Position numbers and translations under genes: made by a program
The notes under the pieces: model-generated
Seen by the model: only the letters and a program-made list of their open reading frames with translations
The model's database searches: none
Told to the model about the DNA's origin: nothing
Shown here: positions 877 through 57,100 of the stretch, piece by piece
Numbering within the stretch: position 1 is the stretch's first letter
Layout of the letters: every line of letters starts with the position of its first letter
Source: Chrysomallon squamiferum
Taxonomy: Eukaryota > Animalia > Mollusca
Length of the DNA stretch: 64,000 nucleotides
Direction of reading: 5' to 3'
NCBI GenBank assembly: GCA_012295275.1
Contig: CM022666.1
Location: forward strand, 310,001-374,000

Positions 877-3800
877 GTAAGTCAATCGCTATAACAGTAA
901 TAGAATAACAAAAGAATAAATTAATAAAATAAACACTATAGAGATGACAAACGACTTCACCGTTTGCTAACAACAAAAATAAATCCGTACTTTTACAGTT
1001 TCTTGTAAAATAAATTTTTAAAGCAAACTTTCTGAAGAATGAATAATGCAAAATAAATTAAGTATAAATAAATAAAAAGATTATATATATATATATAATA
1101 ATAATAATAATAATAATAATAATAATAATTATAATTATAATTATAATTATTATTATTTTTATTATTATTATTATTATTATATTATTATTATTATTATTAT
1201 TATAAAAGAACCAAAACTTGACAATAAATAACAACCGGTATTAAGCTTTTCACTAAACATAATAACAAGAATAAATTAGATAAAATAAATAAATAAATAA
1301 ATAAATAATTCTAAATCAGTATATTGCGTTTTACATTTAGTTCTACGAATGTGTTTTCCAGAAGGATTATATCTGCCACCAATACTAATTACCTTGCTTT
1401 CGTGGCTAAAATGTGCCTGAAGTATATGTAAAAAAGTTCAGCACGTTCTTGTAAATGACTGTTGCTCCCAAATAAATTAAAATAACGTGATAAAACTTTG
1501 GGTGATGAAAAGAACATCATTTGTTACGTCGCACGCGGCTGTGTGTGCTGCACGTGCTCACGCGGTGCGCTCGTGCTGTCACAGAAGCGCGTGCACTACA
1601 GATGTGTTGAAATCTTATTTTGATGCAGTGTTCAATTTGATCCAAAAACAAAAGGAATAATTTATCCTGTTAGGATGGGTCGCTGTCCAGGCTTAACGGA
1701 AAATCAGCGTCGTGAAGCTGTGGGACGGGTTAACGCCAGCCAACGCGTACACGACGTCGTTCAGTACAACGTGCACACCAGAGTGCGCACGTGCGACATG
1801 GATCTCGTTCTGGTAGACCACGATTAACTACACCAAGGGATGGTGGTATTTTGTGACGTCACAGGTTCGAAAGTGCTCCACGTTTAGCTTGCACTGTGCA
1901 GCAAACCACAGGCTCTAGAATTCACACTCAAACTGTGCGTACCCGACTCCATGCTGCTGGGTTACAAACACGTCGCCCTGTTGTAGATGTTCCCCTCACA
2001 GCGCGTCACATTCAGCAACGTCTGAAAATAAAATGTTCTCTCATTTTGTTATTTACTACCTTATATATAAGTATATAGGGAATAAATGGATATCAGATTT
2101 ATCCTGCAAATCGATTTTGGACCGCAATAAGACAAAGCTGATGTTTTGAGACAGACAGTAACCAGTTATTTCCTTTTTTAATGAAAACTGTTTTTAAAAT
2201 AGTATTTTTAGATCAAAACCAACAAGTAAACCTTTAAATAATTTATCGATGTTGTTAACTGTTCTCCAACTTAGTAGAAACTCCTTTATTTATGTGTGCG
2301 CACGTGTACTGTTGATCTTCAAAAATTGCAAAACTGCCTCAGTGTGACTCTTGGTATCTAATGTTGTACCTATTTGTGTGTATGTGTTTGTATATGTGTA
2401 TGTGATGTGTTTGTGTATGTGCATGTGTTTGTGTATCTGTATGTGTTTTTGTGTGTGTATGTGTGTATATGTGTGTGTGTGTGTATAAAACAATTATTAT
2501 AGTTGTTGTTTCTTTATAGTTAAAGCAGTTATGCTGACAGTAAAACCAAATCCTGTTTACGAAGGAGAGCACGTGACAATCAGATGTAGTATTGAGGACG
2601 CCAGCCGAATCGACCAAATCTTTTCTCTGATAATAAGAAGAAAGGACATCGAGGAAGCTGAGTACGTCAACTTCGGGGTAGCCGCCTCGGGGGAAAACGA
2701 CGGCAACGCCTTTTTCTACGACATAAAGTACACCTCTGTGGCAAACGTGACGGGACGACTGTACAGCGGCGACGCGAAAGAAGAAAGCTTTGTACAAATA
2801 GACATGTCGTCTTTCAGTAGCATTGATGAAGGATATTATCTGTGCGTACTCGATTATCTTAACTATGACTTCGAAAAGCAGACGACAATTGCTAGAATGA
2901 AAATTATTGTTAAAAGTAAGCAAAAGCTTTAGTGTAACCATAATTAATTATAAAAAGAAGAAGAAAAAAAAAAGAGAAAGAAAGAAAGAAAAACAGAAAA
3001 AAGAAAGTCTGATTCATGAATATTTTTGGTTAAAAATACGATACGCATATTTTCTGAAACTAACTAACTAAATATTTATTTATTTATATTTGTATTTAAT
3101 ATTTTCATTTATTCAATATGAACACATATCGAATTTCTGTTAATTTTAATGTTTGTATCTTTTCTTAAATTTACAGGTGCTACATTACCGAAGAAAAAAA
3201 TTGTAGGTTTGTACCGTTTTCAATTTTTATTTAGCTAACAATCGCGTTTGATGATAGAAAATTAAATATAAATTAATGTTTTGTTATTAAAACACACTTG
3301 TTTTTTTGTGTTAGCTATTTGTTAGAACACACAGTCAAATTCAGTATTTGAAATGGAATATGGTTCAACCAGAATTCACGGCATACTAAATATATGGAAT
3401 TTATTCATTTTATTTTATTATTATAATAATTGTTTTAAATTTTATTTTATTTTTTTATTTTATTTTATTTTATTTATATATTTATTTATTTTATTCATTT
3501 TGTTTTTGTTGTTGTTCCTGGTTTCATGGGAACAGCTGGTTGAAAATGGCGGTCTGTTTTATATATTGTAGTAGTTATTTATAGTTGATGAGCACTGATG
3601 TTCAAACATTAACATGCCGTTCTGTAGCACACTGTAGGAACCAATTTAAATAAGGAAATAAACAAAGAGGGTAATAAATGGAGGTAAAAGATAAACAGTT
3701 ACGTTCTGTTATTGTATATGTATCAGCTAAATATGTTTTGCATGCTTAAGTTAGCAATTTTTTAATGCCATTTGCATACTGGGCGTTCCTATATTCTCCA

Positions 3801-54100: not shown

Positions 54101-57100
54101 TGTATTAGCACTTTTCTCTCTTTTCTTCTTTTCTTTCTTTCTTTTTTTTTTTTTTTTTTTTTTTTTTTTTTTTTTTTTTTTTTTTTTTGTTAATTTGATC
54201 ATGGGAATCAAATCCTTTCTCTTCGTGGGTAGACAAATAAATATGAAGAGAATTTTGGATAAGATTATTTCGAATGAGCAAGGCTGGCAGATAATGTATG
54301 TTAACTGTTTCCTGTGCTCGTGAAACTGAATTTTATTAATTTCAAATATTATATATGTCAAATAATCGATAATAAAATATGTAATGTGTCTTCTAAAACA
54401 TATCATTACTAGCATAAACATATCACTACTAGTATAAATGCCAAAAATATTGATTTACGATCGATTACAGGTGATTCAAAATAGTAAAATAATAACTTGA
54501 AAGTTCAAACAATTTTATTCGATTGTTTATTAATGTTTAAATTAACTTTGTAGAATCTGACTCACAACCGACCTGTGTTTTAACCACACCTCACAAAAAT
54601 ACAGTCATGTTATAACCACGGAAAGAACAGTTTAAAAGACTCGACAACTTATGTAATAATGTAAATTTGTTTTTATAGACGTAACGAACAAAACTACATT
54701 TCAGAACTAAAAACAAAGAAATGTTTAATCACTTTTTCTAACCACAAACGTAGATGCTACTGCACACCGGAATGACAACATACAAACCTGTACTTACACT
54801 CTGCTGAATGAAAGATGCTGTGAATAAAAGAAACGAAAAAGACGTTATTCAAAACAGTCATTTTACATTTTGCTAGGAACAAATGAATCAAAGTTTAACA
54901 GTTGGAAACATTTCAGGTTAATTGCGCCTGAAACAGGTCGAGAGAAACGACTACGAGCTCAACATACTAACACGCGATGACTTACAACGCTGGTGTGTGA
55001 GAAATACCACGAGCTAGCCATACAGATCAGCAGTAACATGACTTTTATATTCCTTTCTTCATGATTCTCGGCGCTGATAAAGAAGCTGTAAGGAACTGGA
55101 GAATTAAAAACGACAGATTCACTTAGTCTGACTGATTCTGCGGACTGAGTTCGCTGCACGCCACAAGAGTAGACTCGCTCTGTGAACTTCGAGCGGTGCT
55201 GGACAAGTAGCCTCGGTTTCCCTGTAACATGACGTGTAACATGACGTGTAACGCCTCAGTTCGCCCTCTAACCTACGGGGTATACTTGACCTATTACGTC
55301 ATAACTGACTGACTATCGACAGAGGGGTACTGGACCTATAATGTTTGAACTGACCCTGTAATCGCTGTCCCTGATTTTACTCATTTTGTTTCCCCTGCGA
55401 CTTCGATTTTGCCATCAATATTTTCTTTCTGGTCGTAAAATCTACATTCCAGATTTCGTATTATTCACTAATGATTAACAAATTGTAATTTTAAATTAAC
55501 TAGTGTCCTACAATACTGATACGTTGAAATCTAGTACAAAAACAGTTTGATATCCTATATAAAACAAATATCTTAGCTAACAGTTTAACAAAAAGAATTC
55601 AAATGATGCTGAAATATGTATTTATTTATTTATTGTTATGATTATTTTCTTTAAGTGATACTTGTTCAAAATATTGTTACTTCGCATGAAACTGAAACTT
55701 TCATTAAAACAGTGAATTGTACAAATAAACGAGTCAAATGTTTCCACTTACAGTGAACCGTAACATTCACCTCAGAAACAGAAGTTCGACTAAAGCCGAG
55801 GTGATCTAGGTAAGTAACGGCGCATATGTAGACTCCAGAATCACGTACATGCATAGTTTTCATCTTGAGCAGTATAAAAGATGCACGTTTGTCCGAGTTG
55901 TTACATTTCCCCCTCACTCCGATATCCGGAGTTTTCAGATGCAGGACTGCTGTTCCGTTGTCTTTCAAAGGCTGAGCAGACGCCAGCACGGCAGACGTCG
56001 TGACGTTCATCAGCTTTCTTTCTACCGCCATGTAAAACACAGAGTGCACTCGGCTCACACCGCTAACACCGCAACGAATCATTACGTCACTTCCTGCCAT
56101 AACCCGGAACGGTTGTACTGTTAGCTGCGACACTTGTGCAACTACAACTTAATAATAATAATAATAATAATAATAATAATAATAATAATAATAATAATAA
56201 TAATAATAATGTTAATAATGACGAACACTATAACAGGTAAACAATAATGAATTAGTTTACAAAAATAAAATGTATAATGAAATAAATAAAATAATAAATT
56301 ATCAAGGAAATTATGTAAGATTTGGTTGTTACCTTTCTGTTACCTTTCTTTTCTTTTCAATATTTAGTTTATTTGTTTATTCGCTTATTCATTTGTTCTT
56401 TGGTTTTGTCTTTAGTAACTAAATGTATTGGTAAACAACGCCTTAACAAGAAGAGTAATAAGAAGAACGATACATTTTTTTTTCTTTTTATTGTCAAACA
56501 TTTAGATGTAGTCATTACTAGCACGTGATCCAGTTTCACTAAACATATATATATATAGCTAGACAGACAGACAGATAGATAGATAGATAGATAGATAGAT
56601 AGATAGATAGATAGATAGATAGATAGATAGATAGATTATATAGTTCTACATCACACGGTTTAGAGTGTTCGGGATAAACACACAGGTGACATTGTTGTAA
56701 AACGATAATGCATTTGATACTAACCATGCATTACTGCCATCTTACATTATGTTATTCTTTTCTCTTTTTTTTCTTTTTTCCCCCCACTTTTTATCATTCA
56801 GAATCTGCAACTATCAACATAATAAAAAGAAATAATGGAAGCGTGATATAAAATGTTTTAATACATTAAACTTTGCAAGGAACCCCCATGAACACACACA
56901 CTTCACCGAAACAGATTGGTGAATACAAATTTGACTCTTAAGCAAATGTAGAACGAAGGCGAATATTGATGATTAAAGGGTTATTTTATAATTACAGGCT
57001 AAATGAGAGAAATGCAGATGTGTTTAATTAAAAATAATTTAGCAATAATGTTTAGAACACTGCAGTTTTAATGAGACAGTCGTGAAACTCAACCGAGTTT

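What the first reader, a model, noticed from the sequence alone, without database searches (positions are those of the whole stretch)
3177..54817. Dedicated 30-nt linker micro-exon after every Ig exon; all ectodomain exons are symmetric phase 1
Seen: 15 of 15 Ig exons are followed by a 27-33-nt exon (A and B 30/30/30/33/30, C 30/30/27/30/30), seven with the uncommon donor GTTTGT, sequences unconserved and Pro/Lys/Ser/Thr-rich. Known: phase-1 Ig exons are normal, but a separate hinge exon between every domain is not usual. Inference: the duplication unit was Ig+hinge; optional hinges or domains could change spacing and flexibility combinatorially (up to 2^10 in-frame ectodomain combinations per gene in principle).
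Basis: partly seen in the sequence, partly recalled or inferred. Interest (0 to 1): 0.75.

Follow-up and report, generated by a model that had tools for sequence, protein, structure and literature searches.

The report
Spacer micro-exons in mollusc Ig receptors
Three neighbouring genes, likely from a gastropod mollusc, build predicted five-domain immunoglobulin surface receptors from a repeated unit of one domain exon plus a 27-33-base spacer exon; RNA shows the spacers of one gene spliced in, so they are likely fixed spacers and not a combinatorial switch, but one sample also holds an out-of-order join that would mean a circular RNA or a longer allele.

Summary
Observation confirmed. All 15 V-type Ig exons (genes A, B on +, C on -) are phase 1-1, each followed by one 27-33-nt in-frame exon; 7 donors are GTTTGT. 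A splice model trained on Ig sites only picks a 27-33-nt exon in 13 of 15 gaps, against a mean of 2.0 in shuffles. RNA contigs of three runs show gene B linkers included (9 run-by-linker sightings, no skipping joint among 15 of 17 joints listed). A and C are untested. Linker donors are not weaker but all have +4T (15/15, against 0/15 Ig and 1/32 tail exons): the two known donor classes alternate along the gene. New: run X1 joins linker 5 in front of Ig 4 at about the depth of the normal join, so either a circular RNA or a duplicated two-domain allele. Relatives are uncharacterised mollusc proteins; FREPs, remote relatives, have a separate connecting exon. The Ig+linker duplication unit is supported; 2^10 combinatorial splicing is not. 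Our findings index held no such case.

The parts
828..876 (+). Gene A leader exon (signal peptide, phase 1)
   Evidence: sequence
2520..2915 (+). Ig A1
3177..3206 (+). Linker A1, 30 nt, donor GTTTGT
   Evidence: rank 1 of 19; no RNA laid
4035..4424 (+). Ig A2
7287..7316 (+). Linker A2, 30 nt
   Evidence: rank 1 of 43; no RNA laid
7899..8294 (+). Ig A3
8811..8840 (+). Linker A3, 30 nt, donor GTTTGT
   Evidence: rank 2 of 44; no RNA laid
9638..10036 (+). Ig A4
10374..10406 (+). Linker A4, 33 nt
   Evidence: rank 1 of 71; no RNA laid
11802..12194 (+). Ig A5
12433..12462 (+). Linker A5, 30 nt
   Evidence: rank 1 of 6; no RNA laid
12944..13072 (+). Gene A transmembrane exon (donor at 13030 or 13072, unresolved)
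13516..18530 (+). Gene A cytoplasmic tail: chain of 16-20-nt exons and last exon (predicted)
19249..19297 (+). Gene B leader exon
21660..22052 (+). Ig B1 (model pLDDT 97, V-set-like fold)
22376..22405 (+). Linker B1, 30 nt, donor GTTTGT; spliced in X1, X2
   Evidence: table 5
23779..24177 (+). Ig B2
25004..25033 (+). Linker B2, 30 nt; spliced in X1, X2
   Evidence: table 5
26159..26554 (+). Ig B3
27366..27395 (+). Linker B3, 30 nt, donor GTTTGT; spliced in X1, X3
   Evidence: table 5
27967..28365 (+). Ig B4; its acceptor also receives linker B5 in run X1
   Evidence: tables 5, 7, 8
28766..28798 (+). Linker B4, 33 nt; follows Ig B4 in X1, X2
   Evidence: table 7
29349..29741 (+). Ig B5
30030..30059 (+). 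Linker B5, 30 nt, donor GTTTGT; seen joined in front of Ig B4 in X1
   Evidence: table 7
30579..30695 (+). Gene B transmembrane exon (donor unresolved)
31996..38267 (+). Gene B cytoplasmic tail: chain of 16-22-nt exons (predicted, 3' end unresolved)
41994..45120 (-). Gene C cytoplasmic tail: chain of 13-20-nt exons (predicted, 3' end unresolved)
45942..46064 (-). Gene C transmembrane exon (donor unresolved)
47158..47187 (-). Linker C5, 30 nt
   Evidence: rank 1 of 67; no RNA laid
47635..48024 (-). Ig C5
48753..48782 (-). Linker C4, 30 nt, donor GTTTGT
   Evidence: rank 1 of 14; no RNA laid
49298..49693 (-). Ig C4
   Evidence: V-set above cut-off
50069..50095 (-). Linker C3, 27 nt
   Evidence: rank 1 of 9; no RNA laid
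50913..51287 (-). Ig C3
52158..52187 (-). Linker C2, 30 nt
   Evidence: rank 3 of 78 (acceptor rank 1 of 84); no RNA laid
53460..53855 (-). Ig C2
54788..54817 (-). Linker C1, 30 nt, donor GTTTGT
   Evidence: tied first of 76; no RNA laid
55752..56147 (-).
57445..57493 (-). Gene C leader exon (predicted)

Best explanation
These are three paralogous genes for predicted type I membrane receptors, likely of a gastropod mollusc, whose five-domain ectodomains likely grew by copying a unit of one V-type Ig exon plus one 27-33-nt spacer exon, and the spacer is spliced in where RNA was laid (gene B) and is likely a fixed part of the mRNA. Shown: exon anatomy and phases; inclusion of linkers B1-B5 in RNA contigs; the Ig fold is complete within its own exon in the model, so the linker adds only about 10 residues between domains; each of the two intron types has its own signature (Ig donors +4A/C, linker donors +4T). 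Inferred: the spacer loosens and lengthens the chain so each V domain can meet ligand on its own (recognition or adhesion at the cell surface); the 1-1 symmetry matters mainly because it lets units be gained or lost in frame, by unequal crossing-over or by back-splicing, and the out-of-order L5-to-Ig4 join in run X1 is one such event (about 0.45 duplicated allele with seven domains, 0.45 circular RNA of 855 nt, 0.1 artefact).
For: Inclusion in 9 run-by-linker sightings (X1 five, X2 three, X3 one) and no skipping joint among the 15 of 17 joints listed; X1 contig 1 (1420 nt, depth 27) is unbranched through three Ig and three linkers. Linker donors match U1 as well as Ig and tail donors do (7.27, 7.40, 7.41 of 11). 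+4T in 15 of 15 linker donors, 0 of 15 Ig, 1 of 32 tail exons; linker acceptors CAG 13 of 15, Ig acceptors TAG 9 of 15. Model of Ig B1: pLDDT 97, strands from residue 3 to 127 of 130, best matches V-type antibody domains. Homologues: Gigantopelta, Patella, Haliotis, Lottia, Nucella, bivalves. Ongoing unit duplication in this locus: a 1068-nt, 92.5% identical repeat in the tail of gene A.
Against: Only assembled contigs from three shallow runs of one study, for one gene of three; the tool warns that contigs drop rare variants, and 2 joints and 97 loose ends were not shown. Skipping any linker keeps the frame and gives the domain spacing that relatives have (43-48 residues Cys-to-Cys against 40-50 in relatives), so skipped forms would be viable. 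The donor layout around each linker (+4A upstream, +4U downstream) is the one reported for exons whose inclusion rises when U6 m6A is lost (PMC9803359 section 11). No ligand or function was tested.
Confidence: 0.72

Rival explanations
1. The linkers are regulated cassette exons. Because Ig donors are of the U6 class (+4A) and linker donors of the U5 class (+4U), a change in U6 m6A (METTL16) or a tissue factor would shift all linkers together between a long, loose and a short, compact ectodomain, as the meB micro-exon does at one position in LAR-type phosphatases.
For: Strict alternation of donor class (//GURAG 11 of 15 Ig, 0 of 15 linkers; AG//GU 10 of 15 linkers), kept although introns past +8 show no clear likeness (0.361 against 0.350 +/- 0.007) and although 5 linkers do not end in AG. 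Same layout responds to loss of U6 m6A in Arabidopsis (PMC9803359 section 11). All 12 inter-Ig skips are open in frame. meB precedent (PMC8711739 passages).
Against: No skipping joint in three RNA runs for gene B. Donors are not weaker. About half of metazoan donors are of the AG//GU class (PMC11732430), and shared ancestry of the unit can explain part of the uniformity; A and B are paralogues.
Confidence: 0.15
2. The main source of diversity is the number of Ig+linker units per allele: individuals differ in domain number through unequal crossing-over in microsatellite-rich introns, and X1 carries a gene B with units 4-5 doubled.
For: X1 contig 5 is 856 nt, exactly one letter plus Ig4+L4+Ig5+L5, at depth 49.5 against 27 upstream; the implied depth of the L5-to-Ig4 join is up to about 25. 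X2 and X3 show no break or doubling there. The introns before Ig4 and after L5 share a 113-nt, 73% alike low-complexity tract on the same strand.
Against: The intron after Ig4 is not deeper in X1 (3.4) than intronic contigs upstream (3.4-6.3); the DNA-like run X4 is not doubled at Ig4 (44.9 against 38.5-54.2); no variant letters between two copies are visible. The window holds one copy only. A circle explains the same graph: inverted low-complexity arms flank Ig4-L5 (rank 4, tied, of 55 pairs).
Confidence: 0.08
3. The linkers of genes A and C are chance AG..GT matches or relics and are not used; only gene B uses them.
For: No RNA was laid on A or C. In 3 of 15 gaps another candidate scores as high or higher (A3, C1, C2).
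Against: Same sizes, same donor and acceptor signatures as the RNA-confirmed B linkers, same 33-nt exon at position 4 in A and B, and 13 of 15 against a shuffle mean of 2.0.
Confidence: 0.05

Closest known systems
Biomphalaria FREP genes with the small connecting region (SCR) exon (PMC12506961 Fig. 4 legend; P0106, cluster of BgMFREP22.3)
   Same: Mollusc V-type IgSF domains, remotely homologous to these (E 1.1e-7; hhalign 91%, E 9.2e-7 over 61 columns); one Ig per exon with a separate connecting exon between the two Ig exons.
   Different: FREPs have one or two Ig domains and end in a fibrinogen domain; these have five Ig, a linker after every one, a membrane segment and a micro-exon tail. 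The SCR exon's size and splice sites were not found in the texts read; a size near 30 nt is recalled only.
Uncharacterised mollusc tandem V-Ig proteins (Gigantopelta XP_041376960, XP_041372686; Patella XP_055958859; Haliotis XP_067676313)
   Same: Closest sequence relatives (best E 1.1e-70); tandem V-type domains, some with a membrane segment.
   Different: 8 of 9 directly adjacent domain pairs have gaps of 4 residues or fewer, so no 10-residue spacer in their models; automatic models can miss micro-exons, and their genes could not be read here.
LAR-type receptor phosphatase mini-exon meB (PMC8711739 passages)
   Same: A micro-exon encodes a flexible linker between two Ig domains.
   Different: One 4-residue, regulated exon at one position that changes ligand choice; here 9-11 residues after every domain, and skipping was not seen.
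[quoted passage not shown]
   Same: Ig and tail donors fall in the first class, linker donors mostly in the second, all with +4U.
   Different: The papers describe the classes genome-wide; a strict alternation tied to a repeated protein module is not mentioned in the parts read.

Membership tests
Immunoglobulin superfamily, V-type | Ig beta-sandwich with B- and F-strand cysteines | tested here: met
   C22 and C107 invariant in 15 of 15; V-set matches in 9 of 15, two at or above the Pfam cut-off; model pLDDT 97 with nanobody/VH best matches; Atlas first hit V-set 0.95
FREP | One or two IgSF domains of the FREP type | tested here: not met
   Five Ig per gene; homology to FREP IgSF2 is remote
FREP | C-terminal fibrinogen domain | tested here: not met
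   After linker 5 the exon chain gives a hydrophobic membrane segment and a short acidic tail; no separate fibrinogen profile scan of the window was run
FREP | Separate connecting exon between Ig exons | tested here: met
   homology of the linker to the SCR exon itself was not testable
Alternatively spliced linker micro-exon (meB type) | Short in-frame exon between Ig domains | tested here: met
Alternatively spliced linker micro-exon (meB type) | Both included and skipped forms exist | tested here: inconclusive
Alternatively spliced linker micro-exon (meB type) | Inclusion changes ligand binding | not testable with these tools
   No ligand known
Circular RNA | Downstream donor joined to upstream acceptor at exon boundaries | tested here: met
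   Linker B5 in front of the Ig B4 acceptor in X1
Circular RNA | No matching tandem duplication in the same animal's DNA; covalently closed | not testable with these tools
   No DNA run of sample S1 among the 4 runs listed; X4 is another sample

The most novel reading that the evidence does not exclude
A mollusc receptor family whose ectodomain is tuned at the level of the repeat unit: Ig donors and linker donors belong to opposite splice-site classes, so one spliceosome setting (U6 m6A) would shift all hinges and domains together, while back-splicing or allelic duplication of Ig+linker units changes domain number, including an abundant 855-nt circle whose reading frame has no stop.
Probability: 0.1. 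Interest if true: 0.8.

Novelty: new variant of a known kind. Interest (0 to 1): 0.45.

Why it matters
The architecture is real and gives a clean case of an Ig-plus-spacer exon module in an unstudied mollusc receptor family related to FREP Ig domains. It shows that such genes would be mis-annotated if 30-nt exons are missed. [quoted passage not shown] The headline idea of 2^10 isoforms found no support.

Tried and rejected
No whole genome is held, so genome-wide donor frequencies and further paralogues could not be counted; the 32 tail exons serve as the only control, and most were picked with a filter that favours GTAAG/GTGAG/GTATG donors, though their lengths chain in frame; a 33rd candidate without a GT donor was dropped. 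Word-indexed homologue searches gave one unrelated 1592-aa Ig-repeat protein, nothing at domain length and one further Gigantopelta protein. Metagenome scans for relatives with genomic context gave nothing or 7 short chance-level matches, not used. Isoform pairs of relatives differ in other ways than by a linker. The 2-residue difference between the two junctions of P0002 looks like an alternative acceptor, not a micro-exon (by eye). Inverted repeats around Ig4-L5 are microsatellites, common all over the window, rank 4 of 55: weak. A weak-donor reading of GTTTGT was rejected. A 26-nt candidate at 9542-9567 and a 22-nt one at 23706-23727 are out of frame. Literature searches for this architecture in molluscs, for Siglec linker exons (no paper with the phrase among the 20 listed of 255), and for exon repetition in Ig genes found nothing relevant; PMC3031514 is not held. 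Linker or hinge exons in Siglecs, IgG3 and L1-family genes are recalled only.
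Full report
What is there. The window is 29% G+C and rich in microsatellites. It holds three genes: A (828 to about 18530, +), B (19249 to about 38700, +) and C (57493 to about 41500, -). Each has a 49-nt leader exon, five Ig exons, a membrane exon and a tail of 13-22-nt exons. A six-frame profile search finds exactly 15 Ig exons. All are phase 1-1 and 375-399 nt long. The domains are 16-42% identical, keep both canonical cysteines, match Pfam V-set in 9 of 15 cases, two at or above the cut-off, and Ig B1 folds with pLDDT 97 into a domain whose best matches are nanobody and VH domains. 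The strands run from residue 3 to 127 of 130, so the fold is complete without the linker.

With matrices trained only on Ig-exon sites the proposed exon ranks first in 12 of 15 gaps, second in two and third in one. The top candidate is 27-33 nt long in 13 of 15 gaps, against 2 of 15 on the opposite strand and a mean of 2.0 (max 6) in 200 block shuffles. The 15 are not independent: A and B look like whole-gene paralogues, with the 33-nt exon at position 4 in both. The peptides are unconserved and moderately P/K/S/T-rich (41% against 26%), but the exon ends are not random: T at -5 in 14 of 15 and AG at -2/-1 in 10 of 15.

RNA. Four runs hold gene B, three on record as RNA from one study. Laid on 21600-28850, the RNA contigs show GT..AG joints on both sides of linkers B1 and B2 (X1, X2) and B3 (X1, X3), linker B4 as the loose end behind Ig B4 (X1, X2), and linker B5 in X1. 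The DNA-like run X4 shows none of these joints. No Ig-to-Ig joint is among the 15 of 17 joints listed, and X1 contig 1 (1420 nt, depth 27) runs unbranched from Ig1 to the start of Ig4. So inclusion is shown for gene B, and it is the dominant form; constitutive inclusion is inferred.

An unexpected join. In X1 a 29-letter loose end in front of the Ig B4 acceptor equals linker B5, which occurs once in the window. X1 contig 5 is 856 nt, one letter more than Ig4+L4+Ig5+L5 (855 nt, a multiple of three, with no stop when closed on itself), at depth 49.5 against 27 upstream. The depth left over in that bin implies up to about 25 for the join (the same arithmetic reproduces two neighbouring bins, but unlisted contigs could account for part). 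X2 and X3 show no break or doubling at Ig4, and X4 is not doubled. A circular RNA and an allele with units 4-5 duplicated give the same graph. For the circle: intronic depth after Ig4 is not raised (3.4 against 3.4-6.3), no variant letters split the unit, and inverted low-complexity arms flank it (rank 4 of 55; weak). For the allele: a near 2:1 ratio, one sample of three, a shared low-complexity tract in the flanking introns, and a recent 1068-nt duplication in gene A's tail. I cannot separate them.

Splice-site classes. All 15 linker donors have T at +4; none of 15 Ig donors and 1 of 32 tail donors do. Ig donors are //GURAG in 11 of 15, tail donors in 30 of 32, linker donors in none; linkers are AG//GU in 10 of 15. 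Their pairing with U1 is no weaker (7.27 against 7.40 and 7.41 of 11; p=0.76 and 0.58 on duplex energy; U1 end recalled). These are the two donor classes described in PMC11732430 (passages and part 2 of 7 read), which occur about 1:1 in animals, so GTTTGT alone does not mark an optional exon. The uniform +4T is still notable: the introns past +8 show no clear likeness, and the five linkers that do not end in AG have it too. PMC9803359 (passages and section 11 read) reports that exons with +4A upstream and +4U downstream are included more, and exons with the reverse layout skipped more, when U6 m6A is lost in Arabidopsis. That is the layout of the linkers and of the Ig exons. It is the basis of the novel case; nothing here tests it. 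The tail control is biased by how candidates were picked, and no genome-wide background could be counted.

Relatives. The profile finds 393 proteins at E up to 0.001; of 25 looked up, the named ones are uncharacterised proteins of Gigantopelta, Patella, Haliotis, Lottia, Nucella, three bivalves, Biomphalaria and one fish. Hence a mollusc, probably a gastropod (inference). Of 163 proteins held, 13 have two or more full-length matches; 8 of 9 directly adjacent pairs have gaps of 4 residues or fewer and one has 34. Cys-to-Cys spacing is 40-50 in four such pairs from named relatives, against 52-58 here with the linker and 43-48 without. So the spacer is a feature of these genes, not of the whole family, unless the relatives' models missed it, and a skipped form would look like the relatives. 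One hit is a FREP (P0106; hhalign E 9.2e-7). FREP3.1 has a separate small connecting region exon between its two Ig exons (PMC12506961, passages; supplement search without hits; PMC7588048 passages add no size; supplements of the other papers were not read). The regulated precedent is meB of LAR-type phosphatases (PMC8711739, passages). Searches found no description of a linker exon after every Ig exon in a mollusc; the library lacks most subscription papers.

Mechanism. Most likely (0.72) an ancestral Ig exon and spacer exon were copied together four times, then the gene was duplicated; the spacer is a fixed 9-11-residue tether that lets each V domain act on its own, and the 1-1 symmetry lets units be added or removed in frame. 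Regulated skipping gets 0.15, unit-number polymorphism as the main story 0.08, unused linkers in A and C 0.05. Function of the receptors (recognition or adhesion) is inferred from architecture only.

Verdict. Real, RNA-supported for one gene, a new variant of a known kind. Interest 0.45, carried by the donor-class alternation and the out-of-order join. The earlier-findings index held nothing on this genome or sequence, and the eight partial word matches concern other genes and did not move this reading.

Noticed in passing
window 27967-30059: Run X1 joins linker B5 in front of Ig B4 at about the depth of the normal join: circular RNA or duplicated two-domain allele; the closed 855-nt unit has no stop in frame.
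   Followed up: partly
window 13516-18180, 31996-38267, 41994-45120: Cytoplasmic tails are built from at least 32 exons of 13-22 nt that alternate (16/20 or 19/20 nt) so that only pairs keep the frame; they spell acidic 12-13-residue repeats with at most one tyrosine per tail in my partial models. No RNA laid.
   Followed up: partly
window about 15730-17990: Recent tandem duplication in gene A's tail (1068 nt, 92.5% identical) carrying an exon pair; in one copy the usual acceptor of the 16-nt exon is lost, but an AG 6 nt further on would give a 10-nt exon of the same phase.
   Followed up: partly
window 23655-23790: A 73-nt tandem copy duplicates the Ig B2 acceptor and creates a 22-nt out-of-frame pseudo-exon (23706-23727) with a GTAAGT donor; RNA uses the downstream acceptor at 23779.
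   Followed up: partly
all 15 linker exons: T at exon position -5, a third codon position, in 14 of 15 against 27-32% T at third positions; unexplained, possibly ancestry or a splicing signal.
   Followed up: partly
window about 5170-7040: About 1.9 kb of a roughly 23-nt tandem repeat in the intron between Ig A2 and its linker (by eye).
   Followed up: no
window 27967-28365: Runs X1, X2, X3 and X4 carry different sets of substitutions in Ig B4, so several haplotypes exist (table 3).
   Followed up: no
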